Shown here one piece after another: positions 38,501 through 62,579 of a DNA stretch of 64,000 nucleotides. Each line of letters begins with the position of its first letter. Position 1 is the stretch's first letter. The translations under genes were made by a program, and so were the position numbers. The notes under the pieces were generated by a model. It was given only the letters and a program-made list of their open reading frames with translations. It did no database searches and was not told where the DNA came from. Source of the DNA: an uncultured Candidatus Actinomarina sp. (lineage in GTDB: Bacteria; Actinomycetota; Acidimicrobiia; Actinomarinales; Actinomarinaceae); assembly GCA_902599555.1 (NCBI GenBank), contig CACKFQ010000003.1, positions 607-64,606 of the forward strand, in the 5' to 3' direction.

Positions 38501-39444
38501 ACTACTTCAAGTATCATTGCTTCTGGTGGATTTTTTCCATCTGCAAAAGGCTTAATAACTTTCATACGCTGAATAGCTCTTTGGCGTCTTTGAGCTGACT
38601 TAGAATCTAAGTCTGTTTCTAATTTTTCCATTTCAGCTTTTAAGTCAACAAGTTGTACTAATTCTCTTACTGCTTCTGCTCCCATACCACCAGTAAAATA
38701 CTCATCATATTTGTCAATCATTTCACGCCACAATGTATCATTTTCTATAAGCGTTTTTGGCTTAAGTGTCTTTAAAGTAGAGAATGCTTCTTCGATAACT
38801 TTTATTTCAGCATCAGACTTAGCTTTCTTTTGTTTTATTTCTTTTTCAACTTCTTTTTTCCTAATTTGGATCTCTGGCTCAGGAATTTTTGCATTCTCCA
38901 TTGCTTTAATTTCAGTATCCATCTGTTTAATTCTTTTTTGTTCCCATTCTTCAAAATCTTCATTAACAATTTCTACCTCTGCAATAACTGCTTCTTCAAG
39001 CTCAGCTAAATCTTTTGTTCTCTTTTTAGAATCGATAGACACTACTAAATAGGCGGCAAAATAAATCACTTTTTCGAGTTCTTTTGGTGACATGTCTAAG
39101 AAATAACCTAATCTACTTGGAACTCCCTTAAAATACCAAATGTGAGTAACCGGTGCTGCGAGTTCAATATGTCCCATTCTCTCTCTTCTAACTTCACGTC
39201 TGGTTACTTCAACACCACATCTTTCGCAAACAATTCCTCTATATCTAATTCTTTTGTATCTTCCACAAGAGCATTCCCAATCTTTTGTAGGTCCAAAAAT
39301 TCTTTCATCAAAAAGACCGTCTTTCTCAGGCTTTAAGGTTCTGTAATTAATTGTTTCTGGTTTTTTAACTTCACCAAAAGACCAGCTTCTCATTTGATCT
39401 GAGGTAGCAAGACTAATACTTAACTCATCAAAAACTTTATCCAT
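35530..39444 (-). CDS. rpoC: DNA-directed RNA polymerase subunit beta-prime
   Basis: 1304 aa with Zn motif CSCGRY..(x)..CERCG and catalytic [10 protein letters not shown] ~100-residue coiled-coil-like insertion lies after YFAAYLVV. Confidence 0.99.
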
Positions 39445-42400: not shown

Positions 42401-42839
42401 TATCTATTTCTTGAGAAAAATATACTCCAGGTGATCTGACTAACTGACTAACAATAACTCTTTCTGTTCCATTAATAATGAAAGTTCCAGTATCTGACAT
42501 GATTGGAAAATCACCAAGAAAAACTGTTTGTTGTTTTATTTGACCGGTTTCACGATCTAAAAATTGAGCAGTTACATATAAAGGTTGTGAATAAGTTGAG
42601 TCAGTTATCTTACAGTCTTCAAGAGTTTTTAATGGCTCTTCGAAGTAATGATTTAAGAATTCTAAAGAAAATCTACCAGAGAAATCTTCAATAGGAGAAA
42701 TTTCATCTAAAATCTCTTTTAAACCCTCTTCAATAAACCACTTGAAAGAATCTTTTTGTATAATTAATAAATCTGGAATATCTAGAACTTTAGGAATTTT
42801 TGCAAATGAAAGTCTAGAATTCTGAACAGCGGACAACAA
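39447..42839 (-). CDS. rpoB: DNA-directed RNA polymerase subunit beta
   Basis: 1130 aa, canonical beta subunit throughout. Two adjacent in-frame TTG starts (42839 or 42836) follow GAGGAGG, so the exact start is uncertain by one codon. Confidence 0.98.
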
Positions 42840-48714: not shown

Positions 48715-49469
48715 TGACAAGTAGGTTATTGTTACTCGTTTCAATTTCAATACTTTTAGTTACTACTGTTGTTGTAGCTTTATTTGGAGTTGTCCCATTA
48801 CCTGAATATGAAACCTTTTCATCAGGTAATGGATTTAATGGAAAGTTAATTTATCATGTTGAGTTTCAATCGGAAAATATAATTCCTCCAGCACCTGACA
48901 TAATGGATTCTTGTATTTTTTTTATAGATTTATCTGAAAGCCCAGCGCAAGAGAAAGAAGTAGTTTGCAATAGTGATCTATACAACATCTCTTATGATAT
49001 AAGTTTTTATGATGCACAAATACATAATGATGACCAGATTCTGCTTTCATACTGGGACTATCAAGAAAGTAATGATCGTAAGGTTTTAATTGTTGATATC
49101 GAGTCAGGAATAATATCTGAAAGTAAGGATGTTGCTCACTTAAGCGAAAATAACAGAATGAATGTATACGGTGAGAAATTGATTGAGCCTTGGGAAACAA
49201 CTGATTACAATTCCCGGCTTATTGGTGTATATTATGTAAACAGAATTGACACTATTAAAGTCTACAATTCTAGAGCACCATCAAATTACTACTTTGAATC
49301 TCTACACTGGTCTCCTGATGGGGACAATATTGTTGCAGGAGACTCTGAAAATAATTTGATTATATTTTCTAAGAAAAAACTATTTAATCCAGTAAAAATA
49401 CCTTTGAGTTATGAAAAAGTTAATGACGAGAGGGTTGAATTAATAAATGTATTAGGTTGGACTAATTAG
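48714..49469 (+). CDS. signal-anchored exported protein with a PD40/TolB-like beta-propeller repeat motif
   Basis: 251 aa with an N-terminal TM (LLLLVSISILLVTTVVVALFGVV) and an LHWSPDGDNIVAG motif. TAATG coupling to the upstream ORF. Confidence 0.75.
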   Translation: MTSRLLLLVSISILLVTTVVVALFGVVPLPEYETFSSGNGFNGKLIYHVEFQSENIIPPAPDIMDSCIFFIDLSESPAQEKEVVCNSDLYNISYDISFYDAQIHNDDQILLSYWDYQESNDRKVLIVDIESGIISESKDVAHLSENNRMNVYGEKLIEPWETTDYNSRLIGVYYVNRIDTIKVYNSRAPSNYYFESLHWSPDGDNIVAGDSENNLIIFSKKKLFNPVKIPLSYEKVNDERVELINVLGWTN

Positions 49470-50422
49470 CTAAAATCATTCTTGGGCCTGACCCCAATTT
49501 CACTAATTACATGAGCTGCACTTCTATTAGCAATTTCAGCTGAATCTACTAAAGTTAGATTTTTTTGGAGTCCATACAAATAGCCACCAGCAAAGAAATC
49601 ACCCGCACCAGTTTTATCTACAACGTTAGCTTCCGTTGCATCAAAATGATAAGATCGTCCTTTTTCAATGATCAATACACCACTAGAACCAAGTGTGCAA
49701 ATTAGTTGTTCGACATTAGGAAATAAATTCAAAAAATTTTCAATGGATTCATCAATATTGTTAAGCTCAAAAAGAGAATTTAATTCATCTTCATTACAAA
49801 ATACGTAATCAATTTCACTTTTGATGAAATCTTTAAAACTTTCCCTGTGCATATCTACACAAAACACATCAGATAAGCTTATTGCATTCATTCCACCAGT
49901 TTCTTTGTTAAGTTTTGCAGCATAAAGAAACGCTTCCTTACTTGAAGGCTTGTCCCATAGGTATCCTTCCATATATAATATGTTTGCATCTTTTATTGAA
50001 TCTACGTTTAAATCATTTACTGAGAGGTATTCACCAGCCCCAAGATAGGTATTCATTGTTCTTTCTCCATCGGGAGTAATGAAAATAGCACATAACCCAG
50101 TCTGGTTGTCCTCTTCTTCAAAAACTGTAAAATCTTTTAATCCTGAGTCTTTTAAACTAGATTGGAATTGATTACCTAACTCATCATGTGAAATCTTTCC
50201 AATAAAACCTACTTCTCCACCTAGTTGAGATATCCAATAGGCAGTATTTGCTGCTGAACCACCAGCTTCATAAATTGGGTTCTCCATATTTTGAAGAAGA
50301 AAGTTGGAACGTTCCTTATCAACTAAAGTCATTCTTGCTTTGTTTAGACTTAGCTCATTGATCTTAGATTCTTCTATTTGAGTTAATGAATCTACTAGTG
50401 CGTTTCCAATACAAATTATCAC
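49466..50422 (-). CDS. PfkB-family carbohydrate/adenosine kinase
   Basis: 318 aa with the DKTGAGDFFAGG ATP/anion-hole motif and an N-terminal GNALVD motif. Confidence 0.88.
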   Translation of the reverse strand: MIICIGNALVDSLTQIEESKINELSLNKARMTLVDKERSNFLLQNMENPIYEAGGSAANTAYWISQLGGEVGFIGKISHDELGNQFQSSLKDSGLKDFTVFEEEDNQTGLCAIFITPDGERTMNTYLGAGEYLSVNDLNVDSIKDANILYMEGYLWDKPSSKEAFLYAAKLNKETGGMNAISLSDVFCVDMHRESFKDFIKSEIDYVFCNEDELNSLFELNNIDESIENFLNLFPNVEQLICTLGSSGVLIIEKGRSYHFDATEANVVDKTGAGDFFAGGYLYGLQKNLTLVDSAEIANRSAAHVISEIGVRPKNDFS

Positions 50423-50431
50423 AAAATGATT

Positions 50432-50782
50432 TTAAATGATTTGTCCAGGATTTCCTTCCAAATCAACTATTTCTTTTGTAAATTTTTGAAGCTCTTTCAT
50501 GCCTCCTGAAAGGTTGTAGGATTCAACATCTACAGAATTAACATAGTTTGTCACTCGACCTGACCTTGCTCCAGACCTACAAACAAAGATATATTTTTTA
50601 TCAACCATTAACTTGTCAATATTTTCAACAATACTTCCCATAGGAATGTGTGTGGCACTTTGGTAATGGCCTGCATCCCATTCATCATTTTCTCTTACAT
50701 CAATAAGTTGATACCCTTGTTGAATTAAATTTTCAAGATTTTCTGGCATTACAGAAGGAGTGTTGTTAATATCTAATACCAC
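50432..50782 (-). CDS. rhodanese-domain sulfurtransferase
   Basis: 116 aa, single rhodanese domain with active-site loop CRSGARS. Confidence 0.88.
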   Translation of the reverse strand: MVLDINNTPSVMPENLENLIQQGYQLIDVRENDEWDAGHYQSATHIPMGSIVENIDKLMVDKKYIFVCRSGARSGRVTNYVNSVDVESYNLSGGMKELQKFTKEIVDLEGNPGQII

Positions 50783-51602
50783 TCTGACGCTGCCTTAATC
50801 TTCTGACTCTTTCAACTGTAGGTGGATGTGTTGAGAATAATTTGCTTAAACTATTTCCAGAAAATGCTTTGAGTGGGTCAGAAATAAATAGCTGGCTTAC
50901 AGCTGGGTTGACATCCATTGGAACTTTTGCATACCTTTCAATTTTTTCTAAAGCAGATGCTAAAGCTAAAGGATTGCCAGAAATCTCTGCACCAGTTTTG
51001 TCCGCACCAAATTCCCTTGTTCTAGAAATTGCCATCCTGATAATTAATGAAGCTATTGGTGCCGCAATCATTGCTATAACAATTACTGCTGGATGAGTGT
51101 TTCTGTTTCTGTTACCACCACCCCAAAATACCATTCTGGACATAAAGGAAATAGCAGCAGCCAACATTGCTGCAATACTTGAAACTAAAATGTCTCTATT
51201 TTTAATATGTGCTAATTCATGTGCAAGGACTCCTTCTAATTCATCTCTATTCAAAAGTTTTAAGATACCAGTTGTTACTGCTACTTTTGCATTTTTTGGA
51301 TTTCTGCCAGTTGCAAAAGCATTTGGTTGATCACTATTAATTACATATAACTCAGGCATTGGCATTTTTTCTTTCTGTATAAGATGGGACATTATTTGGG
51401 TTACTTCTTCGTATTCTCCATCTTTTATTGGTTGAGCTCTTGTTGATTTAATAGCTAAATTACCAGAAAAAAAGTATATAAAAAAATTAAAAATTACAGC
51501 AAAAAAGAGTGCAGAGATTACATCAAAACCTAAAGCAGTTGCTGAAAATAAGACAACCAAAGTCATTAACGTTAGTAGTACTGTAGTTTTTACAAAATTC
51601 AT
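50766..51602 (-). CDS. htpX: M48 zinc metalloprotease HtpX
   Basis: 278 aa with N-terminal TMs, HELAHIKNRD (HExxH) and a distal EF.AD motif. Confidence 0.92.
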   Translation of the reverse strand: MNFVKTTVLLTLMTLVVLFSATALGFDVISALFFAVIFNFFIYFFSGNLAIKSTRAQPIKDGEYEEVTQIMSHLIQKEKMPMPELYVINSDQPNAFATGRNPKNAKVAVTTGILKLLNRDELEGVLAHELAHIKNRDILVSSIAAMLAAAISFMSRMVFWGGGNRNRNTHPAVIVIAMIAAPIASLIIRMAISRTREFGADKTGAEISGNPLALASALEKIERYAKVPMDVNPAVSQLFISDPLKAFSGNSLSKLFSTHPPTVERVRRLRQRQSGIRY

Positions 51603-51626: not shown

Positions 51627-52643
51627 TTATATTTTTTTTGCTTCCAAACAATAAAAGCCGCCAAGTCCATTTGAGTCAATAAGGGCCTTAAGCCCGGACA
51701 GTTGACTATTAATTTTCAAATTTTCCATACCTTCAGATAGCAAAAGTTTTGTTTGCAAATTATCAAAATACTCATCAAAACCATTAGAGATTAAAAAATC
51801 TCTCTGTAGTGATAATCTTGATTCATAGCCAAGGGTTTTTAGTTTTTTTATCACAGCAGAAAAATTAATATCATAAGTAATATCTACATTTCCCGGTTCT
51901 AATATTGGATCCACAGAAAGGTGGTGGTCTTTATAAGTCCTAAGTAATGACCTATACTTTCTTTTACCTCTATCCATTTGTTCGTAACCATAATCAAAAA
52001 AAAGAATATTTTTTGGACTTAATTTACTGATTATTTTTTCTAAAAATATATCAATATTTGTTTGAATTTCCACGTCTATATTTTCATCAGCCTTTATACG
52101 GTTCCATTCAATCCACTCAACAGTCTTTTTTCTTGCATCAACAAAATCATATGAAAAGATTCCATCATTAAAACAAACTATTTTTTCCTGCCATTTTCCA
52201 TCTTTATATACTGCAATAGAACAAGGAATGTTGTCTAAAACTTCATTTCCAAAAACCAAATCACTATTTTTAAAAGTAAGTTCTTCAAGGTTTGAGGCAT
52301 TTTGGATATTTTTTTGACTCAACTCAGTTCTAGCTGTCGAAGATTTTTCAACAGCATATTTATTTTTAGTTTTAATATGTTCAATAAGTGATCCCGTTCC
52401 AGAACCAAATTCAGTAATATTTAAATCTAAATTGCTTTTTTGAATCCATTTATTAATAATTTTTCCAAAATACTCAGAAACTTCTGGAGAAGTAAGAAAA
52501 TCTCCACTTTTCTTTGATCTAACTTTTTTATTAGTAAAAAAACCATATTTTGAATAAAGAGCTTCCTCCATATATTCATCAAAAAATATTTTGTTGGTTT
52601 TATATTTTTTTAGAAGATAGTTATTAAATTCTTTGAATTCCAA
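51627..52643 (-). CDS. MidA/NDUFAF7-family (COG1565/DUF185) SAM-dependent methyltransferase
   Basis: 338 aa. SGDFLTSPEVSEYFGKII..W, EFGSGTGSL, GNEVLDNIP, FFDYGY and VDITYDINFS parallel the GDFITSPEISQIFGE, ELGPGRGTL, HEFFDVLP, DYG and DLTADVDFS blocks recalled for human NDUFAF7. The ATG follows the nuoN stop after a 3-nt gap. Confidence 0.85.
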   Translation of the reverse strand: MEFKEFNNYLLKKYKTNKIFFDEYMEEALYSKYGFFTNKKVRSKKSGDFLTSPEVSEYFGKIINKWIQKSNLDLNITEFGSGTGSLIEHIKTKNKYAVEKSSTARTELSQKNIQNASNLEELTFKNSDLVFGNEVLDNIPCSIAVYKDGKWQEKIVCFNDGIFSYDFVDARKKTVEWIEWNRIKADENIDVEIQTNIDIFLEKIISKLSPKNILFFDYGYEQMDRGKRKYRSLLRTYKDHHLSVDPILEPGNVDITYDINFSAVIKKLKTLGYESRLSLQRDFLISNGFDEYFDNLQTKLLLSEGMENLKINSQLSGLKALIDSNGLGGFYCLEAKKI

Positions 52644-52646
52644 GTT

Positions 52647-54125
52647 TTAATTACCAAAAAAAATCGAAGAGACTTCACCAAGGTAACTGAATATCCCAGG
52701 AAAAATACCTGCAACAAAAGTTATAAGAACTGTAAGAGCTCCTACAACTTTAAGAGGACTTTGAAATTCAAATGATTTTTCTTCTTCAGGATTTTTTAGT
52801 TCATCCATCCATATAACTTTTGAAATTCTTGCATAGTAAACAAGTGCAATAACTGCATTTATCGCACCTACTATAGCTAAGGAAACACCAATTATTTCCC
52901 CAGTACTCAAAAGACTTCTAAAGACCACAAACTTAGCAAACCAACCTCCAAGCGGAGGTATGCCTGCCAAAGAGAAAAAGAAAACAGTTGTTAGAACTCC
53001 AGTAAGAGGTGAGTGTTTCGCAATGCCTCCCCATTCATAAAAATTATCTGATTTCGTAAAGTTCGTAAAAAGATGTACTGATAAAAAGGCTCCTATATTC
53101 ATAAAGGCATAAATAATTAAATAAGTGACGCTTGCAAAAATACCATCTTGATAATTTCCAGTTATTCCAGATACAGCGAGTGGAGCGATAATAAATCCCG
53201 CCTGAGATATTGAGGAATACGCAAGCAACCTTACTGGGTTTGTTTGCTGTAGTGCTACTAAATTTCCTAGTGTCATTGTGGCACCTGCAACAATTGCTAA
53301 AATTACGCCCCAACTTCGGCCAGAACTTGCAAACACCTTTGTCAAAAGTACAATCAGTGCAACAAAGCCTGTAGCTTTGGAGCTAACTGAAAGATAAGCA
53401 GTTATTGGTAAAGGTGCACCTTCATAAGTGTCTGGAGCCCATGAGTGAAATGGAACAACAGATATTTTAAATCCAATTCCTGAAATAACTAAAATAGCAC
53501 TCAATAAAAGTACTGGCGAAGAGCCCAATGAGTTTGCAAGTAAATAGGCAGATATATCTGCGAAAACTAATTGTCCGGTTAATCCATAAATTAGTGAGAA
53601 TCCATACAATATTAGAGAAGCCGAGAGAACGCCTAGTAAGAAGAATTTAATTGCACCTTCATTAGATTTTCTGTCACCCTTTTTCCAACCAGATAATAAA
53701 AACATAGGCGTTGATGCTAACTCAATTCCAATAAATATTGTTAGCAGGTCCCTAGACGAACTTACTACTAAAGCGCCAAGTAGAGAGCTAAGGAGGAGGT
53801 AATAATACTCCCCTTGATAAAACTTATCACTTTCTATGAAGTTTATTGATAGTAAAAAAGTCAAATAAGTGATGAGTATAAACAGGCCTTTAAGAATGAT
53901 TGAAAATTTATCTACTACAAAGCTGTTGCCAAAAGTATAAATTGGATCTGAGTAAGTAGCCCACTGAATTACTAGGGGTGCTAAAGAAGCTAATGTCCCA
54001 AAAAGAGCAAAAGCTGCAACATAATATTTTGATTTTCTTGGAAGAATTAAATCTAATATTAAAGTCCCAACAATAGTGAATATAACTATTAACTCAGTTG
54101 AAATTGCAAAGTAGTTTATAGTAAT
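52647..54125 (-). CDS. nuoN: NADH-quinone oxidoreductase subunit N (proposed non-canonical ATT start)
   Basis: The track starts at TTG 53864 (405 aa), but the frame is open up to 54143. Codons 54125-53865 encode ITINYFAISTELIVIFTIVGTLILDLILPRKSKYYVAAFALFGTLASLAPLVIQW...FVVDKFSIILKGLFILITY, the usual NuoN N-terminal helices. There is no ATG/GTG/TTG in those 87 codons. GGAGGA (54136-54131) lies 5 nt before ATT 54125. Confidence 0.85.
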   Translation of the reverse strand: MTINYFAISTELIVIFTIVGTLILDLILPRKSKYYVAAFALFGTLASLAPLVIQWATYSDPIYTFGNSFVVDKFSIILKGLFILITYLTFLLSINFIESDKFYQGEYYYLLLSSLLGALVVSSSRDLLTIFIGIELASTPMFLLSGWKKGDRKSNEGAIKFFLLGVLSASLILYGFSLIYGLTGQLVFADISAYLLANSLGSSPVLLLSAILVISGIGFKISVVPFHSWAPDTYEGAPLPITAYLSVSSKATGFVALIVLLTKVFASSGRSWGVILAIVAGATMTLGNLVALQQTNPVRLLAYSSISQAGFIIAPLAVSGITGNYQDGIFASVTYLIIYAFMNIGAFLSVHLFTNFTKSDNFYEWGGIAKHSPLTGVLTTVFFFSLAGIPPLGGWFAKFVVFRSLLSTGEIIGVSLAIVGAINAVIALVYYARISKVIWMDELKNPEEEKSFEFQSPLKVVGALTVLITFVAGIFPGIFSYLGEVSSIFFGN

Positions 54126-54127
54126 TT

Positions 54128-55696
54128 TTATCCTCCAAATGCTTTAGAAAGAAGGCTAACAACAGCATCATTAGTTGCTCCAAATATTAGCTTTGGAAAT
54201 ACACCGATAAGAATTGTTAGAATTACCAGTGGGATCCATGCAGCTAATTCATAGCCATCTGCATCATGAAGCTCCATTTCATTCCATTCATCAGATGGTT
54301 CACCAAGATTAACTCTTTGCAACATCCACAACAAATATCCTGCGGTTAATACAGTTCCTATTGCACCAGCGACCATTGATCCTCGAAAAACTGTAATATT
54401 TAATCCATCAAGTGGATTAAATGCTCCAAGTAATGCCATAAACTCTCCCCAAAATCCAGCAAGTCCTGGCAGGCCTAAAGAAGCCATTGCAGTAAACCCT
54501 AACAGTGCTCCAGTCTTTGGAAGTAGTTTCATATTTCCACCTAACCTTCCCATATCCCGAGTGTGATATGTGTGAGCCATGGATCCCGATAGGAAAAATA
54601 ATAAGCCAGTGATCACTCCATGTGCGACCATACCAATCATTGCAGCATTTATACCAATTGGTGTTAATGAAGCTATACCCAACATTACAAAACCCATATG
54701 ACCAACTGAAGAAAATGCTATTAATCTCTTTAGATCAGTTTGAGCTAAACATGCAAGTGAACCATATATAATCCCTATTGCAGAAAGAATTGCAATCGCA
54801 GGCGCCCAGGCTTTTGCTTGTTCCGGAAGTATTGGTATTGCGATTCTAACAAAACCATAAGATCCTAATTTCAAGAGTATTGCTGCTAACAATACTGAAC
54901 CAACTGTAGGAGCTGCCGTGTGTGCATCGGGAAGCCAGGTATGTAACGGCCACATTGGTACTTTAACCGCAAAGCCAAGAAACAAAACTGCAAAAACTAG
55001 CATTGCAAATGTTCCTGTAAACGCACCATTAGTTCCAAGCTCAATTAACTCAGGAATGCTAAAAGTTCTATTTCCTCTGTAATACAAGCCTAAAAAGCCC
55101 AGTAACATAAATGCGGAACCAAATAGAGTAAAAACAAAAAACTTGATACTTGCATATAGTCTTGTTTCAATTTGATTTTTAAATCCTGCTACAGTTCTTA
55201 CAGTTTTATCTCCCCAAATTCCAATCATGAAATACATCGGAAGAAGAACTATTTCAAAAAATACAAAAAACAATATTAAATCAAGTGCAACAAATGTGCC
55301 ATTCATACCAGTCTCTAAAACTAAAATTAATGCAAGAAATCCCTTAGGACTTTTTGGTTCTGGTAGATGTTCAATTGAATAAATAATTGCTAAAACTGTA
55401 ATAAATGTAGACAAAATTAATAAAGGAAGAGATATTCCATCTATCCCAGTTTCATAATTTGCGTTGATGCTTTTTATCCATGAAATTTTATTACCTAGTT
55501 GTAATTTGTCTGCATTAGAAAAATCAAACTGAGGTAGGAGTAAGGCACTTAAAATAAATGTGACTATTGAAGATACTAATGCGAAGCCTTTAATTAAAAG
55601 CTCTTGGCTTTTTGGTATTGCGGTCAAAATTAATGCACTAATTAAAGGCAGAAAAACTACTGCCGTCAATCCTGTACCGTTTGTTAATAATTCCAC
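54128..55696 (-). CDS. nuoM: NADH-quinone oxidoreductase subunit M
   Basis: 522 aa antiporter-like subunit with ...PMWPLHTWLPDAH.... Confidence 0.96.
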   Translation of the reverse strand: MELLTNGTGLTAVVFLPLISALILTAIPKSQELLIKGFALVSSIVTFILSALLLPQFDFSNADKLQLGNKISWIKSINANYETGIDGISLPLLILSTFITVLAIIYSIEHLPEPKSPKGFLALILVLETGMNGTFVALDLILFFVFFEIVLLPMYFMIGIWGDKTVRTVAGFKNQIETRLYASIKFFVFTLFGSAFMLLGFLGLYYRGNRTFSIPELIELGTNGAFTGTFAMLVFAVLFLGFAVKVPMWPLHTWLPDAHTAAPTVGSVLLAAILLKLGSYGFVRIAIPILPEQAKAWAPAIAILSAIGIIYGSLACLAQTDLKRLIAFSSVGHMGFVMLGIASLTPIGINAAMIGMVAHGVITGLLFFLSGSMAHTYHTRDMGRLGGNMKLLPKTGALLGFTAMASLGLPGLAGFWGEFMALLGAFNPLDGLNITVFRGSMVAGAIGTVLTAGYLLWMLQRVNLGEPSDEWNEMELHDADGYELAAWIPLVILTILIGVFPKLIFGATNDAVVSLLSKAFGG

Positions 55697-55704
55697 TTTT
55701 CCTC

Positions 55705-57720
55705 CTATATAATAAACAAAATTAATAAACTAATCGTCACAACGCCACCTAAAAACAACATTAAATATTGCTGTGTTCTTCCTGTCTGTAGTAATTTAAC
55801 TTTCCCACCAAAGCTATCAGTTCCTGTGGAAGACATATTCAAAACTTTATCGATTCCATTTTGATCAATATTGTTATAAACTATTACACCCATAAATGAC
55901 GCAAGCTGACCAAAACCATTTACAAATCTATCTATTACATTTGTGTTAAATGCATCAACTGCTTTAGCCATATTTAATTTGATTGGATCAATAATAAATT
56001 TGAAATAGAAATCATCAATGTAGTATTTATTTTCTAATACTTTCCAAATAGGTTCGATTTTAATTTTGTCGTCTCCAGTCTCAGCACTTCCTTGAAGTTG
56101 GTATAAATAGTAACCTAGACCTATCCCTAGCAATCCTGCAGTTAAACCGAGTCCTAGAGCAAATAAGTCGAAGCTTTCTGGGTGATATTCAATAATAGGA
56201 TTTTTACGAGTAGTTACCCATTTGGTAAAGCCTGTGTAAACCCCTGGAATATTAACCCATCCAGAAGCTGCTGCAAATACAGCCAGTACAACTAGAGGTG
56301 TGGTCATCATGGAATCTGACTCATGTGGATGACCGTGGCCTCTGTACTCTCCTAAGAAAGTAAGGCAAACTGCTCTAGTCATATAAAAAGCAGTTATGAA
56401 AGCACCTAATACAGCTATAAAGAAAAAGGTTGTTTCACCTTCATGATTAAAAGATGCAAGGATTTCATCCTTAGAAAAGAAACCTGCGAATGGTGGTAAA
56501 CCGGCAAGTGCTACTGTTCCAATAATAAATGTTGAAAAAGTTTTTGGCATGACTTTCCTCAAACCACCCATTTCTAACATACTATTACTGTGTACTGCAT
56601 GTATTACTGATCCAGCCCCTAGAAATAATAGAGCTTTAAAAAACGCATGTGTCCACAAATGAAAGAGTGCTGCAGTGTACGCTCCAGAACCAATTGCGGC
56701 AACCATATAACCAAGCTGACTTACAGTTGAATATGCGAGAACTTTCTTTAGATCATCTTGAACAATTGCTATAAGTCCAGCCGTAAGAAGAGTTATTACT
56801 CCAAATAACATTACAATGTCTAATGCTTCATTTGCTATTCCTTGATAAAAAGGGAACATTCTAGCTAATAAGTAGACTCCTGCTGTGACCATTGTTGCAG
56901 CATGCATTAGTGCTGAAACTGGAGTTGGGCCTGCCATTGCGTCAGGTAGCCAGACATGTAATGGAAACTGTGCGCTTTTACCCATTGCACCTATAAATAG
57001 CAATACCCCGGCTACAAATGCGACATTTTTTATTGCTGGATAATCATGCGTTGCTTGATACAGAATTTCAGATATCCTCATAGTGCCAGTATTTAAAGCC
57101 AGAATTATTATTCCAATCATTAAGCCCACATCAGCAATCTTATTTGTAATAAAAGCCTTCATAGCTGCTGAAGAGTTGTCCTTGACTTCCCAATAATGCC
57201 CTATAAGTAAATACGAACAGACTCCAACTAGTTCCCAACCAATTAAAATTTGGATTAACGTAGGTGAAGAAACTAATACAAGCATACTTCCTGCAAATAA
57301 AGTCAAGGACGTGAAGAAAAATGTATATCTTATTTCACCTTCCATATAATTTGTCGCATAAATAAATACAAGAAGCGCGACAAGTCCAACAACAAAATAC
57401 ATCATGATTGATAGACCGTCTACTACCCAACCGAATTCAATATCAAATTGTCCGATATTTCCAACATTAATAAAAAATTCATTGGCAACCCCTTCAGTTA
57501 CATGAAGGTACATTAAAGCTAAGCTGTAAATAAAAATTATTGCGATAGTGCCTAATGCAATTTCAGCACCCTTTAGTGGAAGGCTCTTTCCTGCAAAAGT
57601 AATTATTAGTGCAGCTATAAAAGGAAGAACTACAAGGACCCAAACAAATTCTGCAAGTACGCCGCCGTCTGTGTAGACGACCTCACCCTCTGCGAACAAA
57701 TTAATATTTGTTTTTACCAT
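55705..57720 (-). CDS. nuoL: NADH-quinone oxidoreductase subunit L
   Basis: 671 aa antiporter-like subunit with ...FPLHVWLPDAM..PTPVSAL.H and a C-terminal extension (lateral helix region). Confidence 0.96.
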   Translation of the reverse strand: MVKTNINLFAEGEVVYTDGGVLAEFVWVLVVLPFIAALIITFAGKSLPLKGAEIALGTIAIIFIYSLALMYLHVTEGVANEFFINVGNIGQFDIEFGWVVDGLSIMMYFVVGLVALLVFIYATNYMEGEIRYTFFFTSLTLFAGSMLVLVSSPTLIQILIGWELVGVCSYLLIGHYWEVKDNSSAAMKAFITNKIADVGLMIGIIILALNTGTMRISEILYQATHDYPAIKNVAFVAGVLLFIGAMGKSAQFPLHVWLPDAMAGPTPVSALMHAATMVTAGVYLLARMFPFYQGIANEALDIVMLFGVITLLTAGLIAIVQDDLKKVLAYSTVSQLGYMVAAIGSGAYTAALFHLWTHAFFKALLFLGAGSVIHAVHSNSMLEMGGLRKVMPKTFSTFIIGTVALAGLPPFAGFFSKDEILASFNHEGETTFFFIAVLGAFITAFYMTRAVCLTFLGEYRGHGHPHESDSMMTTPLVVLAVFAAASGWVNIPGVYTGFTKWVTTRKNPIIEYHPESFDLFALGLGLTAGLLGIGLGYYLYQLQGSAETGDDKIKIEPIWKVLENKYYIDDFYFKFIIDPIKLNMAKAVDAFNTNVIDRFVNGFGQLASFMGVIVYNNIDQNGIDKVLNMSSTGTDSFGGKVKLLQTGRTQQYLMLFLGGVVTISLLILFII

Positions 57721-58019
57721 TTCATTAAATCAAATTCGTTAATGTTTGCGGTTTGTCTATTTCTAAACAACATGAGTACAATCGCAAGACCAATTCCAAC
57801 CTCAGCAGCAGCAATTGTAATAATAAAAATTGTGAAAATTTGTCCTTGCATCAATGTATCTGCAAGCATGGTATCAAACATAATAAAGTTGATATTGACA
57901 GAATTCAAAATTAACTCAATTGACAATAAAACCATTACGGCATTTCTTCTAACTAAGATTCCATAAATACCTAAAGAAAATAGCGCAGCTGCAACAACTA
58001 ATACAGGCTGAACAATCAT
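57714..58019 (-). CDS. nuoK: NADH-quinone oxidoreductase subunit K
   Basis: 101 aa, 3 TM, with ...LSIELILNSVN... and AAAEVGIGLAI. Confidence 0.95.
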   Translation of the reverse strand: MIVQPVLVVAAALFSLGIYGILVRRNAVMVLLSIELILNSVNINFIMFDTMLADTLMQGQIFTIFIITIAAAEVGIGLAIVLMLFRNRQTANINEFDLMKW

Positions 58020-58534
58020 ACTTGATCCTCATCAATTAATGCTTCGTCTTTCCTAGCAAGCGTTATGCCTCCAATTAAAGCTGCGAGTAAAACAAAAGAC
58101 ACTAGTTCAAATGGGAATACAAATCTACTAAGTAGTATTTCACCTAATAGCTCCGTTGAAGAACCGGATGTTATCGTCACATCGCCATCAAAACCATTAA
58201 TTAATATATATGAGAATAGAAGAAAAATTGATCCAGCTATTGCTGCTCCCAATTTTTTATTTTTATCGTTATCAAGTTCTGCATTTTTGCCAAGGGGAGC
58301 ACGTGTAATCATAATACCGAACAAGAAAAGAACTATTACTGCTCCAATATAAACGAGAACCAATACAAGTGCTACGAACTCTGTTGACAACATTAAAAAC
58401 AATATTGCCGTTAAAGCCAAAGTAAAAACTAATGAAATAGCTGCATGAATAACGTTTGAGGTTGTAACTACCCTTATTGCAGTTGATAAAAGCGCAAGAA
58501 GAACGAAATAAGTTACAATTTCAAAAATTTCCAT
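58016..58534 (-). CDS. nuoJ: NADH-quinone oxidoreductase subunit J
   Basis: 172 aa hydrophobic protein between nuoI and nuoK. Confidence 0.92.
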   Translation of the reverse strand: MEIFEIVTYFVLLALLSTAIRVVTTSNVIHAAISLVFTLALTAILFLMLSTEFVALVLVLVYIGAVIVLFLFGIMITRAPLGKNAELDNDKNKKLGAAIAGSIFLLFSYILINGFDGDVTITSGSSTELLGEILLSRFVFPFELVSFVLLAALIGGITLARKDEALIDEDQV

Positions 58535-58536
58535 TT

Positions 58537-59022
58537 TTAGCTTTCTAGACCTTCAGCCTCTGGAACAGTTTTTAACCAATCATCCAAACGTTCTTTGTCG
58601 TGCAACATGTCGCCCATGTTAAATTCAGAATATTCATATTCTGGTGACCAAAATAATGCATCAAAAGGACAAACTTCTACACAAATTCCACAGTACATAC
58701 ATAATGCATAATCAATATCGAACCTGTCTAGAACGGCTCTACTTCTTTGCCTACCCCCAGGTTTAGATGGAGGTTGTAACTCTTTATGGCCCTCAATATA
58801 AATACACCAATCTGGGCATTGACGGGCACAAAGCATGCAACTAGTGCATGCTTCTTGATCTAAAGCGATCACACCCCTTGCTCTTGGTGCAACTTTCTCT
58901 TTTTCAAACGGATAGTTTACATTTGGTTTTGAATGGAAAGGAGACAAAGTTTTTAACATATTAACAATTACGATTTTTATTCCAATTAAAAATCCAGGCA
59001 CTTTTGGTTTAAATGTTTTCAT
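58537..59022 (-). CDS. nuoI: NADH-quinone oxidoreductase subunit I (2x[4Fe-4S])
   Basis: 161 aa with CTSCMLCARQCP and CMYCGICVEVCP ferredoxin motifs. Confidence 0.96.
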   Translation of the reverse strand: MKTFKPKVPGFLIGIKIVIVNMLKTLSPFHSKPNVNYPFEKEKVAPRARGVIALDQEACTSCMLCARQCPDWCIYIEGHKELQPPSKPGGRQRSRAVLDRFDIDYALCMYCGICVEVCPFDALFWSPEYEYSEFNMGDMLHDKERLDDWLKTVPEAEGLES

Positions 59023-59993
59023 TAAAATCCAACCTTCATAACTGCAGTTACAAGAATATTAACTAAAGATGCAGGAATAAGTATCTTCCATGCAAGATTT
59101 TGAAGTTGATCTTCTCGGAATCTTGGTTGGGACCATCTTATTGCAACCAAGATAAAACCTAAAATAGCTGTCTTTGTCAAAAGAACTACTGGTCCATAAA
59201 AGTTTACCCATTCAGTTGGAAGGAGTGGTACATGGTAACCACCAAGGAATAATGTTGAAGCAATTGCACACAAAATAAACATATTCATGTATTCAGAAAT
59301 ATAAAATATAAGAAACCTGATACCAGAGTATTCTGTCATAAAACCCATAGTTAGTTCTGATTCACCAATTGGCATATCAAACGGTACTCGCATCATTTCA
59401 GCTGTTGCGGCAACCATGAAAATTAAGAATCCTACAATCTGTCCCCCAACTACAAAAGGTACTCCCCATTCAATTTGCTTTTCTACTATTCCAACTAGTG
59501 ACATAGTTTCAGCTTGAATAACTACTCCAACAACAGCAAGAATTAACGGAAGTTCATAAGCTATAAGCTGTCCTGCAGCTCTCAAACCACCCATTAGGGA
59601 ATACTTGTTTGCTGATGACCATCCAGCAGTTAGCACACCTATAGTTCCCAAAGAGCTGATCGCAAGTGCAAAGAAAACACCCAATTCTAAATCTGCTACT
59701 ACCAAAGTTGGGCTCATTGGGACTACTGCAAAAAGTGCAACGCAAGAAACCATAACATAAGCAGGTGCCCATTTAAACACGGGCCTATCAACTTCTGTAG
59801 GGATAATATCTTCTTTTTGAACAAATTTAAGTATTTCCGCAAGAGGAAATATGAAACCTCTAAGTCCTACATGTAAAGGACCCGGTCTTCGCTGCATCCA
59901 TGAGGCACCCTTTACATCCATTATTGTGAATATAATTGCTCCGTTCAAAGCAGCAATCGCAAGAAATCCAACCTTGACTAAAACTTCTGTCAT
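59022..59993 (-). CDS. nuoH: NADH-quinone oxidoreductase subunit H
   Basis: 323 aa with ...MQRR.GP..VG..G..QP.A. The 4-nt ATGA-type overlap with the nuoD stop leaves no space for nuoEFG. Confidence 0.96.
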   Translation of the reverse strand: MTEVLVKVGFLAIAALNGAIIFTIMDVKGASWMQRRPGPLHVGLRGFIFPLAEILKFVQKEDIIPTEVDRPVFKWAPAYVMVSCVALFAVVPMSPTLVVADLELGVFFALAISSLGTIGVLTAGWSSANKYSLMGGLRAAGQLIAYELPLILAVVGVVIQAETMSLVGIVEKQIEWGVPFVVGGQIVGFLIFMVAATAEMMRVPFDMPIGESELTMGFMTEYSGIRFLIFYISEYMNMFILCAIASTLFLGGYHVPLLPTEWVNFYGPVVLLTKTAILGFILVAIRWSQPRFREDQLQNLAWKILIPASLVNILVTAVMKVGF

Positions 59994-61186
59994 CTATCTA
60001 CGTCTCCTAGAACAAAGTCTAAACTTCCCATAATTGCAATTAAGTCTGGGAGTAAAGCCCCCTCAAGCATAATAGGTAAAATAGAAACATTGCTGAAAGA
60101 AGCTGTACGAACTTTAAGTCTGTAAGGCCCTAACCCACCATCTGAGACTATATAGTAACCCATTTCACCTTTTGGATTCTCTGCTCTTACATAGGTACGT
60201 CCTTGGGGAACTTTGATAACTTTGGGCACCTTTGCTTGTAGTGGGCCAGATGGCATAGAGTCGATTGCTTGTAAAACAATTTTTGCAGATTCAACCATTT
60301 CTTTAACTCTGACATCCCATCTGTCGTAACAATCTCCATTTTCTCCAACTGGAATATCATAATCAAATTGATCATATGGCAGATAATCTGTCTGGGTTCT
60401 TAAGTCTGACTTAACTCCTGATGCCCTGAGTATTGGGCCAGAAACACCATAAGCTTCTGCTGTTTCTGCAGTGAGAACGCCTACATTTTTGGTTCTTTTC
60501 TTAAAAACTTCATTTCCACCGATTAAATTTTGAAATTGATCAGCTGCCTGTATAACTTTTTCCATGGCTACTTTTGTATCTCTATAAAATCCAGCGGGTA
60601 AATCTTGAATATTTTTTTTCGAAGTGGGCCCTGCTCCGGCTGCAGGTTTTACTCCTCCAATACGATTAAAGTTTGGATGAAAACGTCCTCCAGTTACTGA
60701 CTCTATCAAATCTAAAACTCGTTCCCTATCTTCCATTGCATAAAAAATTGGGGTTAGAGCACCAACCTCAAGAGCGTATGCACCATTAAAGACGAAATGT
60801 GAAGAAATTCTGGCCATTTCAGTAAGAATTAGTCTGATATGCTTTGCTCTTTCGGGTACTTCTATTTCCATTAATCTTTCAGCTCCTGCAATAAATGGAA
60901 TCTCATTTGAAAACCCTGCGACCCAATCTATTCGATTTACAAGTGTTGTAATTTGAGGATAAGATCTTACTTCTGCGAGCTTTTCATATCCGCGATGCAT
61001 ATAGCCCAAAACAGGTTTTACATCATGTACTTTTTCACCATCTACTTTTGCTACCAGTCTTAAAACTCCATGAGTAGATGGATGTTGAGGTCCGATGTTA
61101 AGTGTCATATCTTCAGTTTCAATTTCAACTGATACAGAAGCCTCTGAAAATCTGTTCATATTCTGTGGATCTAAAGCATTAACCAT
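59990..61186 (-). CDS. nuoD: NADH-quinone oxidoreductase subunit D
   Basis: 398 aa with GPQHPSTHGVLRL and GYMHRGYEKL, ending ...LDFVLGDVDR. Confidence 0.97.
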   Translation of the reverse strand: MVNALDPQNMNRFSEASVSVEIETEDMTLNIGPQHPSTHGVLRLVAKVDGEKVHDVKPVLGYMHRGYEKLAEVRSYPQITTLVNRIDWVAGFSNEIPFIAGAERLMEIEVPERAKHIRLILTEMARISSHFVFNGAYALEVGALTPIFYAMEDRERVLDLIESVTGGRFHPNFNRIGGVKPAAGAGPTSKKNIQDLPAGFYRDTKVAMEKVIQAADQFQNLIGGNEVFKKRTKNVGVLTAETAEAYGVSGPILRASGVKSDLRTQTDYLPYDQFDYDIPVGENGDCYDRWDVRVKEMVESAKIVLQAIDSMPSGPLQAKVPKVIKVPQGRTYVRAENPKGEMGYYIVSDGGLGPYRLKVRTASFSNVSILPIMLEGALLPDLIAIMGSLDFVLGDVDR

Positions 61187-61724
61187 CTACTGATCCATCA
61201 CTTTCTGATTCTTCTGGCATTCCCTCAACATCTACATCTCCCGGCCAAGGTTTAACTTCTCTACTTATTAACTCAAAAGATTTCAGCATAGGATTTCCTT
61301 CATACCCATCAGGAAGATAAAGTTTTTCAAGATTTGGATGATTTTCAAAATTTATACCAAACATTTCGTATGCTTCTCTTTCATGCCAATTTGCACCAGC
61401 GTACACATCAATAAGTGAGTTAATATTTGGCTCTGATTTACTAATACTTGTTGATACAGTAACTAAGTTAGTATTGTCTAAATCTGAAAGGCATGTGATT
61501 ATTTCAAAACTAGGAGAAACACTCTCTTTTGGTGCTTCACCAACAGAAACTTCATTGTCCCAATCTATTGCTGAGAGCCAAGAGAAAAATTTTAAATTAA
61601 ATTCATCTCTAAGTTTTTTATGCACATCAATCCACTCTGTTGAATCAATTTTTATGTTGATTGTTTCAAACTCAAGAGTTGCCTCTTTAAAGCTTTCTTT
61701 TATATTGTTAAAAAATTCTTCCAT
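61179..61724 (-). CDS. nuoC: NADH-quinone oxidoreductase subunit C
   Basis: 181 aa with ...ANWHEREAYEMFGI.F..HP. Confidence 0.95.
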   Translation of the reverse strand: MEEFFNNIKESFKEATLEFETINIKIDSTEWIDVHKKLRDEFNLKFFSWLSAIDWDNEVSVGEAPKESVSPSFEIITCLSDLDNTNLVTVSTSISKSEPNINSLIDVYAGANWHEREAYEMFGINFENHPNLEKLYLPDGYEGNPMLKSFELISREVKPWPGDVDVEGMPEESESDGSVDG

Positions 61725-61725
61725 C

Positions 61726-62223
61726 TTAAATTGGCTCAGTTTGAACTTCTAACCACTTCTCTTTCATGTCTTCTCCGCGAATTTTTTTCTGTAGAAGAAT
61801 AATTCCTTCTTGCAATGCCTCAGGTCTTGGTGGACAACCGGGAACATAAACATCAACAGGGATTAATTGATCTACTCCCTTGGTGACTGAGTAAGAGTCC
61901 CAATAAGGTCCACCACTATTAGAACAAGATCCCATTGAAATAACATATTTTGGCTCAGGCATTTGGTCATAAAGCCTTTTCACAGAAGGAGCCATTTTAT
62001 CTGTTACTGTTCCTGCAACAATCATAAAATCCGCCTGACGTGGAGATGCTGGAAGAGGAATAACTCCTAACCTCATAAAATCATGCCTTGGCCCGCTTAC
62101 AGCCATAACCTCAATAGCGCAACATGCTAATCCAAATTGAAAGTACCATAGCGAGTATGATCTGGCCCAGTTGAATACTGAAGATATGGGTTTTGGTAGG
62201 CCGAATTTATCTATGACTCCCAT
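61726..62223 (-). CDS. nuoB: NADH-quinone oxidoreductase subunit B
   Basis: 165 aa with the N2-cluster ligand pattern GLACCAIE ... [10 protein letters not shown] ... GCPPRPE. Confidence 0.97.
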
Positions 62224-62579
62224 TTTAAGACATCCTTTCTTATTGCGTATATAAGTCCAATTAACAAAATAAATATAAAAACAAACATTTCAATTAAGCC
62301 AAAGTAGCCAAGTTTTTCTAGGTTGATAGCCCATGGAAATATGAAGACCGCTTCGACATCAAATATTACGAAAAGCAAGCCGAATATATAATACCTTACG
62401 TATGTTTGACTCCATCCAGTTCCAACTGGATCAACACCACATTCATAAGTTTGCAACTTTTCTTCATAAGGCTTGTTTGGTCTTAGTACTGAAGCTACTC
62501 CAAGAAGCAATACGACAAGAAAGAGGCCAAAACCTAGCACTGCTCCTATGGTCACGTAATCTTGAAAATAAGAAATCAT
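62211..62579 (-). CDS. nuoA: NADH-quinone oxidoreductase subunit A
   Basis: 122 aa, 3 TM, with ...YECG.DP.G......Y...L.F.IFD.E..F..PW. No SD precedes the ATG. Confidence 0.94.

What the first reader, a model, noticed from the sequence alone, without database searches (positions are those of the whole stretch)
51627..52643. Homologue of the mitochondrial complex I assembly methyltransferase NDUFAF7 (MidA) as the last gene of the nuo operon
The 338-aa protein starting 4 nt downstream of the nuoN stop codon (3-nt gap) carries the MidA/NDUFAF7 family blocks GDFLTSPEVSEYFG, EFGSGTGSL, NEVLDNIP, DYGY and DITYDINFS. In mitochondria NDUFAF7 dimethylates an arginine of NDUFS2 (the NuoD homologue), in the LHRGTEKL motif as I recall it. 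That motif is present in the NuoD encoded here (GYMHRGYEKL, Arg65, codon 60994-60992). Physical operon linkage of the bacterial homologue to nuo would be direct genomic evidence that the complex I link of this family predates mitochondria. It predicts arginine methylation of a bacterial NuoD.
Basis: partly seen in the sequence, partly recalled or inferred. Interest (0 to 1): 0.7.

Follow-up and report, generated by a model that had tools for sequence, protein, structure and literature searches.

The report
MidA methyltransferase gene coupled to nuoN
A real gene for a MidA/NDUFAF7-type methyltransferase sits three bases after the last subunit gene of an 11-gene complex I operon in a marine actinobacterium; this layout is already published for this group, but it proves widespread in related lineages, which strengthens the case that the enzyme family served complex I long before mitochondria.

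Summary
ORF 52643-51627 (minus strand, 338 aa, TTG start) begins 3 nt after the nuoN stop codon. It is a PF02636 (MidA/NDUFAF7) protein: Pfam E=7e-24, and its AlphaFold model matches the Dictyostelium MidA and bacterial COG1565 structures (TM about 0.8). It is under purifying selection (dN/dS about 0.2). NuoD carries GYMHRGYEKL, with Arg65 at codon 60994-60992.

Three corrections apply:
- It is not the last gene. htpX, a rhodanese gene and a pfkB kinase gene follow without terminators.
- The operon is the 11-subunit type, lacking nuoEFG.
- The arrangement was already described for Ca. Actinomarinales (Bulzu 2021 preprint). Dimethylation of the equivalent NuoD arginine is already shown in Paracoccus denitrificans (Carroll 2013).

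What I add is a survey. nuoN-MidA linkage occurs in 20/20 Actinomarinales loci, 19/19 loci of a sister Acidimicrobiia clade (variable gaps) and 8/8 sampled deeper relatives, one with MidA placed before nuoA. It is absent from a third Acidimicrobiia clade (0/19) and from 80 loci of a different MidA subfamily. All linked genes fall in one subfamily, distinct from the mitochondrial/proteobacterial type.

Most likely function: a translationally coupled maturation factor that methylates NuoD Arg65. This is inferred, not shown. Interest is moderate.

The parts
51627..52643 (-). MidA/NDUFAF7-family (PF02636) SAM-dependent methyltransferase gene, 338 aa, TTG start
   Evidence: Pfam E=6.7e-24. PDB sequence hits are to Dictyostelium MidA 5ztz (1.5e-15) and Burkholderia COG1565 4f3n (4e-14). 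The AlphaFold model has pLDDT 90 and Foldseek TM 0.80-0.82 to 5zu0/4g67. dN/dS is 0.12-0.24.
52644..52649 (-). nuoN stop codon (TAA, 52649-52647) plus the 3-nt spacer (AAC) before the TTG start; likely translational coupling
   Evidence: Sequence read. A TTG/GTG start lies 3-9 nt after the nuoN stop in all 20 Actinomarinales loci, and the ORFs overlap in L036, L167 and L170.
52647..54125 (-). nuoN, apparently initiated at a conserved ATT codon (54125-54123), 5 nt after a GGAGGA that overlaps the end of nuoM
   Evidence: NCBIfam TIGR01770 at 1e-101. There is no ATG/GTG/TTG before 53864. The ATT is conserved in all Actinomarinales loci.
54128..62579 (-). nuoA, B, C, D, H, I, J, K, L, M: the rest of an 11-gene complex I operon without nuoE/F/G
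   Evidence: ORFs and translations. NuoD matches NF008974 at 2e-133. The order is colinear in L001-L021.
59990..61186 (-). nuoD, the proposed substrate
60992..60994 (-). Codon for NuoD Arg65 in GYMHRGYEKL, the position equivalent to the dimethylated Arg of NDUFS2 and of Paracoccus Nqo4
   Evidence: The motif is invariant in 22 linked NuoDs and in L168. The equivalence comes from PMC3750175.
50766..51602 (-). htpX (M48 membrane metalloprotease), 24 nt downstream of the methyltransferase gene
   Evidence: NCBIfam HtpX at 2e-91 and Pfam PF01435. It lies downstream of MidA in all three Acidimicrobiia clades.
50432..50782 (-). Single-domain rhodanese (PspE-like) gene, overlapping the htpX end
   Evidence: Pfam PF00581 at 8e-13. 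Its position is conserved in Actinomarinales only.
49466..50422 (-). pfkB-family kinase (adenosine-kinase-like), the last co-directional gene
   Evidence: Pfam PF00294 at 1e-50. Conserved in Actinomarinales loci.

Best explanation
The ORF encodes a class I SAM-dependent methyltransferase of the MidA/NDUFAF7 family (PF02636). It is transcribed with an 11-subunit (NuoEFG-less) complex I operon of a Ca. Actinomarina-like genome, and it is translationally coupled to nuoN through a weak TTG start 3 nt after the nuoN stop. The most likely role is a sub-stoichiometric maturation factor for that complex. By analogy with NDUFAF7 acting on NDUFS2 Arg85, and with the symmetric dimethyl-Arg65 found in Paracoccus Nqo4, it would dimethylate NuoD Arg65 in the HRGxE motif. 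That residue lies next to Fe-S cluster N2 at the NuoD/NuoB interface, and methylation would occur before NuoD docks onto NuoB. Shown here: family and fold membership, retention of the family's invariant residues, purifying selection, and deep, recurrent genomic linkage to nuo. Inferred: co-transcription, translational coupling, the substrate (NuoD Arg65) and the effect on assembly or on N2. The confidence given (0.6) is for the statement as a whole. Roughly, it is 0.97 for family membership, 0.7 for a function tied to the co-encoded complex, and 0.5 for dimethylation of Arg65 specifically.
For: Family: PF02636 at E=6.7e-24, and PDB sequence matches only to MidA/COG1565 structures. The AlphaFold model has pLDDT 90.2. 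Its Foldseek top hits are Dictyostelium MidA (E=2e-22, TM 0.80), Burkholderia COG1565 (TM 0.82) and R. palustris 1zkd, with the next fold 15 orders of magnitude weaker. All 15 columns invariant across 36 diverse family members are present, including motif I E78-x-G80-x-G82-x-G84. dN/dS is 0.12-0.24. Linkage: nuoA-N-MidA-htpX-rhodanese-pfkB is colinear in 20/20 Actinomarinales loci that have upstream DNA. nuoN lies upstream on the same strand in 19/19 loci of a sister Acidimicrobiia clade, at 29-8736 nt. All 8 sampled deeper relatives (<=36% identical to any Acidimicrobiia MidA) are nuo-linked. These include ORF overlaps with nuoN (L167, L170) and one different arrangement, with MidA directly before nuoA (L164). 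A control of 80 loci from another MidA subfamily has no nuo gene nearby. Wherever the nuoD-nuoH junction is visible, the linked operon is the 11-subunit type. Target: Arg65 in GYMHRGYEKL is invariant in all linked NuoDs. The equivalent Arg is symmetrically dimethylated in bovine, human, Pichia and Paracoccus enzymes (PMC3750175), and NDUFAF7 is the responsible enzyme in human cells (PMC9006661). A non-ATG start a few nt after the nuoN stop is conserved, and there are no terminator-like sites at the junctions.
Against: No MidA homologue from any prokaryote has been characterised biochemically; its function there is 'only inferred in silico' (PMC12455994). The HRG arginine does not discriminate, because E. 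coli has it unmodified. The protein is only about 21-22% identical to Dictyostelium MidA and sits in a separate subfamily, so its substrate could differ. One Acidimicrobiia clade shows no nuo within 10 kb (0/19). In the sister clade, unrelated genes (ABC transporter, racemase, ilvC, glgB-like) sit between nuoN and MidA. Some relatives lie next to, or are fused to, a MobA-like NTP transferase beside a cox/xdh cluster. Within Acidimicrobiia the htpX neighbourhood is more pervasive than the nuo one. Because the linked genes form one subfamily, the many linked loci may represent few independent evolutionary events.
Confidence: 0.6

Rival explanations
1. The adjacency is inherited synteny compacted by genome streamlining, not a functional unit. 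The methyltransferase has a substrate unrelated to complex I and merely sits in a conserved chromosomal neighbourhood.
For: In the sister Acidimicrobiia clade, gaps of 1-9 kb filled with unrelated genes separate nuoN from MidA. A third clade has no nuo nearby. Actinomarinales genomes are compact, with most genes on one strand in this window. All linked genes belong to one subfamily, so the number of independent events is small.
Against: The linkage persists down to about 26-30% MidA identity. It includes overlapping nuoN/MidA reading frames in GC-richer, non-streamlined contigs (L036, L167, L170). It also reappears in a different configuration, MidA before nuoA in L164. The family's only characterised members act on the NuoD orthologue.
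Confidence: 0.15
2. The enzyme does serve the co-encoded membrane complex, but through a different target or partner. It might methylate another Nuo subunit or another NuoD residue, or act together with the HtpX membrane protease in quality control of Nuo membrane subunits.
For: An M48 peptidase gene lies downstream of MidA in all three Acidimicrobiia clades, in 40 of the 59 non-Actinomarinales loci. It is a divergent immediate neighbour in an unrelated lineage (L163). The subfamily differs from the mitochondrial one. L167 links MidA to a nuoJKLMN-only cluster that encodes membrane subunits only.
Against: The freshwater-type loci keep nuoN-MidA without htpX. No member of the family is known to target anything other than the NuoD orthologue. 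Arg65 and its motif are invariant in the linked NuoDs.
Confidence: 0.15
3. It is a nucleic-acid methyltransferase acting on DNA or RNA, as was tentatively proposed for Wolbachia MidA.
For: PMC12455994 reports preliminary m4C/m6A signals in E. coli expressing Wolbachia MidA.
Against: The authors themselves call that result preliminary. No restriction, helicase or DNA-binding genes are nearby. The conserved context is respiratory. The closest structures are the protein arginine methyltransferase MidA and its uncharacterised bacterial homologues.
Confidence: 0.03

Closest known systems
NDUFAF7 / MidA (human NDUFAF7; Dictyostelium MidA, PDB 5ztz/5zu0/5zzw): mitochondrial protein arginine methyltransferase and complex I assembly factor
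   Same: It shares the Pfam family (PF02636), the fold (TM 0.80) and the SAM motif I. It is also associated with complex I, and its presumed target arginine in the HRGxE motif of the NuoD/NDUFS2 orthologue is conserved.
   Different: Identity is only about 21-22%, and the protein is about 60 residues shorter. Its subfamily signature is different (DFLTSPE / NEVLDNIP, against DFITAPE / QEFFDALP in Dictyostelium). It is encoded in the operon of its presumed client rather than elsewhere. The client is an 11-subunit enzyme without the NADH-oxidising module. Its activity is untested.
Paracoccus denitrificans Nqo4 Arg-65 symmetric dimethylation (Carroll et al. 2013, PMC3750175)
   Same: It concerns a bacterial NuoD orthologue carrying the modification at the same motif, coincidentally with the same residue number.
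   Different: Paracoccus is an alphaproteobacterium with a 14-subunit enzyme. The responsible enzyme there was not identified in that paper, and no operon linkage is reported.
Ca. Actinomarinales 'HeR - 11-subunit nuo - NDUFAF7 - htpX - pspE - adenosine kinase' unit (Bulzu et al. 2021, bioRxiv 10.1101/2021.02.01.429150)
   Same: It has the same gene order from nuoA to the pfkB kinase, in the same order of bacteria, and the gene was already annotated as NDUFAF7 (K18164/PF02636).
   Different: In this window, the gene upstream of nuoA is a divergently oriented phosphodiesterase-family ORF, not a heliorhodopsin. The paper mentions the methyltransferase only in passing. It neither surveys other lineages nor discusses the NuoD arginine.
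Uncharacterised bacterial COG1565 proteins (Burkholderia thailandensis 4f3n/4g67; Rhodopseudomonas palustris 1zkd)
   Same: They share the family and the fold (TM 0.75-0.82).
   Different: They belong to the proteobacterial subfamily. A sample of 80 loci of the DF.TAPE / NE..DA.P type showed no nuo genes within the flanks.

Membership tests
PF02636 / COG1565 (MidA-NDUFAF7 methyltransferase family) | Profile HMM match above the curated threshold | tested here: met
   PF02636.23 scores 85.1 bits against a gathering score of 23.3, E=6.7e-24, covering residues 66-268. NCBIfam has no model that matches.
PF02636 / COG1565 (MidA-NDUFAF7 methyltransferase family) | MidA-type fold (class I methyltransferase core with family-specific additions) | tested here: met
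   The AlphaFold model has pLDDT 90.2 and pTM 0.89. The six best Foldseek PDB chains are all MidA/COG1565 (E 2e-22 to 8e-19, TMq 0.74-0.82), and the next hit is at E=5e-7.
PF02636 / COG1565 (MidA-NDUFAF7 methyltransferase family) | SAM-binding motif I (E/D-x-G-x-G-x-G) and the family's invariant residues | tested here: met
   E78-F-G80-S-G82-T-G84 is present. Y30, G34, T51, N133, E134, D137, P140, D217, Y218, D254, T256 and L284 are invariant across 36 diverse members, the window protein included.
PF02636 / COG1565 (MidA-NDUFAF7 methyltransferase family) | Protein arginine (symmetric dimethyl) methyltransferase activity on the NuoD/NDUFS2 HRG arginine | not testable with these tools
   This needs mass spectrometry or an enzyme assay. 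The literature shows the activity only for the eukaryotic enzymes.
NDUFAF7 orthologous group (mitochondrial / alphaproteobacterial clade) | Groups with the mitochondrial and proteobacterial sequences rather than with a separate subfamily | tested here: not met
   An NJ tree of 136 representatives places the window protein in a contiguous DF.TSPE / NE..DN.P subfamily, apart from the DF.TAPE / NE..DA.P types. PDB scores show no preference for the eukaryotic enzyme (60.7 bits) over the Burkholderia one (55.9 bits). The tree has no support values and no labelled eukaryotic sequences, so this is a provisional result.
Substrate requirement for NDUFAF7-like action | Arginine followed by glycine in the HRGxE motif of the NuoD orthologue | tested here: met
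   The motif is GYMHRGYEKL with Arg65 at codon 60994-60992, and it is invariant in the linked NuoDs. The motif is necessary but not sufficient, because E. coli has it unmodified.
11-subunit ('ancestral-type') complex I operon | Gene order nuoA-B-C-D-H-I-J-K-L-M-N with no nuoE/F/G | tested here: met
   nuoD (ends 59990) overlaps the start of nuoH (59993). All eleven genes were identified, and the order is the same in L001-L021, L024, L032, L036, L047 and L168.
Operon membership of the methyltransferase gene | Co-transcription with nuo | not testable with these tools
   Support is indirect. The gap is 3 nt, the strand is the same, the close spacing or overlap is conserved, and no terminator-like site lies at the junction. 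No transcript data are available.

The most novel reading that the evidence does not exclude
A distinct, probably actinobacterial, subfamily of MidA methyltransferases is an ancestral, operon-encoded and translationally coupled maturation factor of the 11-subunit (NuoEFG-less) complex I. If so, arginine methylation beside cluster N2 is not a proteobacterial or mitochondrial invention. It would belong to the older quinone-reductase core of the enzyme and predate the NADH-oxidising module. This would revise the 'proteobacterial origin' view, and it would offer E. coli, whose own NuoCD arginine is unmodified, as a clean heterologous test bed for the enzyme-substrate pair.
Probability: 0.4. Interest if true: 0.6.

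Novelty: already known. Interest (0 to 1): 0.38.

Why it matters
The biochemical role of MidA/NDUFAF7 homologues in prokaryotes has never been tested. The only evidence so far is a modified arginine in Paracoccus plus in-silico arguments. An enzyme gene fused by translational coupling to the operon of its presumed client gives the cleanest available enzyme-substrate pair to test. The broad linkage found here is independent genomic support that the whole family works on complex I. It spans several deep lineages and two arrangements, and it always involves the 11-subunit enzyme wherever that can be seen. It also indicates that the link exists outside Proteobacteria. The specific locus, however, is already annotated and described, and the central prediction (a methylated bacterial NuoD) already has a precedent. 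The gain is therefore incremental.

Tried and rejected
- A 36-sequence alignment (A1) was too diverse to seed the genome scan, so I used a 10-sequence alignment (A2) instead.
- I tried to obtain taxonomy for the deeper nuo-linked relatives. Two cluster-member runs and the profile search returned no organism names, so those contigs remain unlabelled (GC 0.41-0.64).
- P0070, a 565-aa 'NuoN+MidA fusion', was examined and rejected as a real fusion. It joins NuoN ...ALVY directly to MidA residue about 64 (NKWIQKS...), which looks like a deletion or assembly artefact.
- The promoter and terminator scan gave no more sites than shuffled sequence.
- The Shahul Hameed 2018 paper could not be read because it is not in the library. 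Its content is cited only through reviews.
- The 14-subunit nuo operon said to lie near this one in Actinomarina is not in the window, where bases 1-47 kb hold the rpoBC and ribosomal protein cluster. It could not be fetched, so I could not compare the two NuoD paralogues.
- The idea that the HRG arginine co-varies with MidA presence was dropped as uninformative, because the motif is nearly universal and is unmodified in E. coli.

Full report
**The locus**

The window has about 35% G+C, and its closest relatives are Candidatus Actinomarina single-cell genomes and MAGs (97% protein identity to L001/L002). On the minus strand there is an uninterrupted run of genes:
- nuoA 62579-62211
- nuoB 62223-61726
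- nuoC 61724-61179
- nuoD 61186-59990
- nuoH 59993-59022
- nuoI 59022-58537
- nuoJ 58534-58016
- nuoK 58019-57714
- nuoL 57720-55705
- nuoM 55696-54128
- nuoN, ending at 52647
- the 338-aa ORF 52643-51627
- htpX 51602-50766
- a rhodanese gene 50782-50432
- a pfkB-family kinase gene 50422-49466

The ORF is not the last gene, because three more co-directional genes follow. Their spacings are a 24-nt gap, a 17-nt overlap and a 9-nt gap. A consensus scan finds no terminator-like hairpin at any junction, and overall no more signals than in shuffled sequence.

**What the protein is**

- Pfam assigns it to PF02636 (Methyltransf_28, the MidA/NDUFAF7 family) at E=6.7e-24, far above the curated threshold. 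NCBIfam has no matching model.
- Against all PDB sequences, the only significant matches are Dictyostelium MidA (5ztz, 1.5e-15), the Burkholderia COG1565 protein (4f3n, 4e-14) and R. palustris 1zkd (2e-7).
- An AlphaFold model built on a 10-sequence alignment is confident (pLDDT 90.2, pTM 0.89). Its six best structural matches in the PDB are those same three proteins (E 2e-22 to 8e-19, TM 0.74-0.82). Ordinary class I methyltransferases follow only at E around 5e-7.
- All columns invariant across 36 diverse family members are present, including motif I (E78-x-G80-x-G82-x-G84).
- Against five Actinomarina orthologues, dN/dS is 0.12-0.24, so the gene is under purifying selection.
- Most automatic gene calls start at the internal ATG (314 aa). 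That start would remove conserved N-terminal residues (F21 is invariant in A2). Every Actinomarinales orthologue has a TTG or GTG 3-9 nt after the nuoN stop, so the 338-aa form is preferred.

**The proposed substrate**

NuoD contains GYMHRGYEKL with the arginine at residue 65, codon 60994-60992. Carroll et al. 2013 (PMC3750175) showed that the equivalent arginine is fully symmetrically dimethylated in several enzymes:
- bovine Arg-85
- the human enzyme
- Pichia Arg-106
- Paracoccus denitrificans Nqo4 Arg-65

In the same study, E. coli NuoCD Arg-249 was unmodified, and Thermus has a threonine at that position. NDUFAF7 is the enzyme responsible in human cells, and Dictyostelium MidA methylates an NDUFS2 peptide in vitro (PMC9006661). 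The arginine is necessary but does not by itself predict methylation. It is invariant in all 22 nuo-linked NuoD sequences I could read, and also in a distant linked operon, L168.

**How general the linkage is**

A scan of one genome per GTDB species returned 80 loci: 21 Actinomarinales and 59 other Acidimicrobiia. I located the window's proteins in them with tblastn and ordered the loci by an NJ tree of their MidA sequences. Three groups emerged.

1. Actinomarinales. All 20 loci with any upstream DNA show nuoA-N, MidA, htpX, rhodanese and pfkB in the same order. The intergenic distance between nuoN and MidA is 3-9 nt.
2. A sister clade of Acidimicrobiia. All 19 loci with enough upstream DNA have nuoN upstream on the same strand, but at 29 to 8736 nt. 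Six lie within about 200 nt, and in L036 the two ORFs overlap. The longer gaps hold unrelated genes: an ABC transporter, a racemase, ilvC and a glycogen-branching-type enzyme.
3. A third clade. None of 19 loci with at least 9 kb upstream has any nuo gene.

I then sampled more distant family members, taken from an exhaustive HMMER search of 1.84 billion representatives. These are at most 36% identical to any Acidimicrobiia MidA. Every one of eight members of the same sequence subfamily was nuo-linked:
- nuoN directly upstream, often with overlapping reading frames: L165, L167, L168, L169, L170/L171, L173
- nuoN 2.5 kb upstream: L161
- MidA directly upstream of nuoA: L164

L168 shows the nuoC-D-H order, so it is again the 11-subunit type.

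Four results went the other way:
- A relative sits beside a cox/xdh molybdo-enzyme cluster and a MobA-like gene (L162).
- A different subfamily member is paired divergently with an M48 peptidase gene (L163).
- An apparently archaeal contig has no nuo gene in the flanks available, with only about 1 kb upstream (L166).
- All 80 metagenome loci of the DF.TAPE / NE..DA.P type had no nuo, htpX, rhodanese or pfkB hit; 35 of these loci are 8 kb or longer.

In an NJ tree of 136 representatives, all nuo-linked genes fall in one contiguous DF.TSPE / NE..DN.P subfamily. By its motifs, the Dictyostelium enzyme (DFITAPE, QEFFDALP) belongs to the other type.

**Interpretation**

Several features point to a functional unit rather than passive synteny: persistence down to about 26-30% protein identity, overlapping reading frames in GC-rich contigs that are not streamlined, and a second arrangement next to nuoA.

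The caveats are real. All linked genes form one subfamily, so independent events are few. One clade lost the linkage. Unrelated genes can intervene. The M48 protease neighbourhood is at least as persistent within Acidimicrobiia.

My best explanation is a sub-stoichiometric maturation factor. Its expression would be tied to, and held below, that of NuoN through a weak non-ATG start next to the nuoN stop, and it would dimethylate NuoD Arg65 before assembly with NuoB. My rough confidences are:
- 0.97 that it is a MidA-family methyltransferase
- 0.7 that it functions with the co-encoded complex
- 0.5 that the reaction is dimethylation of Arg65

**Comparison with what is known**

- The gene is routinely annotated as 'SAM-dependent MidA family methyltransferase'.
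- The exact Actinomarinales unit (11-subunit nuo, NDUFAF7, htpX, pspE, adenosine kinase) is described in the heliorhodopsin preprint of Bulzu et al. (bioRxiv 10.1101/2021.02.01.429150). That preprint calls the three genes accessory components for the complex and notes a second, 14-subunit operon elsewhere in these genomes.
- Full-text searches for NDUFAF7+operon, COG1565 and PF02636 found no other paper that discusses the linkage.
- Methylation of a bacterial NuoD (Paracoccus) and a bacterial origin of the MidA-complex I relationship are established or argued in the literature. Even so, a 2025 paper still states that the prokaryotic function is only inferred in silico.

The specific finding is therefore already known. 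What appears not to have been stated is the breadth of the linkage, its restriction to a non-mitochondrial subfamily, and its consistent association with the 11-subunit enzyme.

**Limits**

- The taxonomy of the deeper linked contigs could not be determined.
- The trees are distance-based and have no support values.
- The 14-subunit operon of this organism was not available for comparison.
- Nothing here tests enzymatic activity.

Noticed in passing
window 54123-54136 (minus strand): nuoN has no ATG/GTG/TTG start until 53864, about 87 codons into the conserved protein. An in-frame ATT (54125-54123) lies 5 nt after a GGAGGA that overlaps the last codons of nuoM. This ATT and the GGAGG are conserved in all 20 Actinomarinales loci that include nuoN (L004 starts inside MidA), so nuoN probably uses a rare ATT start codon.
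   Followed up: partly
window 52571-52643: Most public gene calls for this protein start at the internal ATG (Met25, 314 aa) and so drop 24 residues, including a conserved Phe. All Actinomarinales orthologues instead have a TTG or GTG a few nt after the nuoN stop.
   Followed up: yes
window 50766-51602; loci L022-L080, L162, L163, L168: An M48 (HtpX-type) peptidase gene accompanies the MidA gene more persistently than nuo does within Acidimicrobiia. It lies downstream in 40 of the 59 non-Actinomarinales loci, and in an unrelated lineage (L163) it is a divergent immediate neighbour. A MidA-HtpX functional link is possible but unexplored.
   Followed up: partly
P0129, P0132; L162 8888-11044: Some GC-rich relatives are fusions of a MobA-like NTP transferase domain (PF12804) with the MidA domain. 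In L162 the two are neighbouring genes downstream of a cox/xdh-type molybdo-enzyme cluster (CoxD/E/G, XdhC, Fer2, MoCoBD, FAD_binding_5).
   Followed up: partly
P0070 (565 aa, from public assemblies): This is an apparent NuoN-MidA fusion protein. The junction skips the NuoN C-terminus and the first 60 or so MidA residues, so it looks like a deletion or an assembly chimera rather than a true fusion.
   Followed up: partly
window 62661-63749 (+ strand): Upstream of nuoA there is a divergently oriented ORF with a type I phosphodiesterase/nucleotide pyrophosphatase domain (PF01663). This differs from the heliorhodopsin and ferric-iron ABC transporter genes reported upstream of this operon in the published Actinomarinales cluster.
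   Followed up: no
L167 3408-10004: A nuoJ-K-L-M-N-only cluster, holding membrane-arm genes only, is preceded by STAS/anti-sigma-factor and Tad pilus genes. It is followed by MidA with a 4-nt overlap. The operon is either split or is a membrane-arm-only module.
   Followed up: no
L168 6032-6757: A 241-aa ORF without any Pfam hit sits between a shortened nuoL (583 aa) and nuoM. It may be the detached C-terminal part of NuoL.
   Followed up: no
L164 111-1404: In one GC-rich contig the MidA gene lies directly upstream of nuoA (47% identical to the window's NuoA) instead of downstream of nuoN.
   Followed up: partly
window 1-47200: The rest of the window is almost entirely minus-strand and looks like the rpoB/rpoC, EF-G/EF-Tu and ribosomal protein super-cluster (for example the 1130-aa and 1304-aa ORFs at 39447-42839 and 35530-39444). 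GC skew is negative in every 2-kb bin from 1 to about 48 kb.
   Followed up: no
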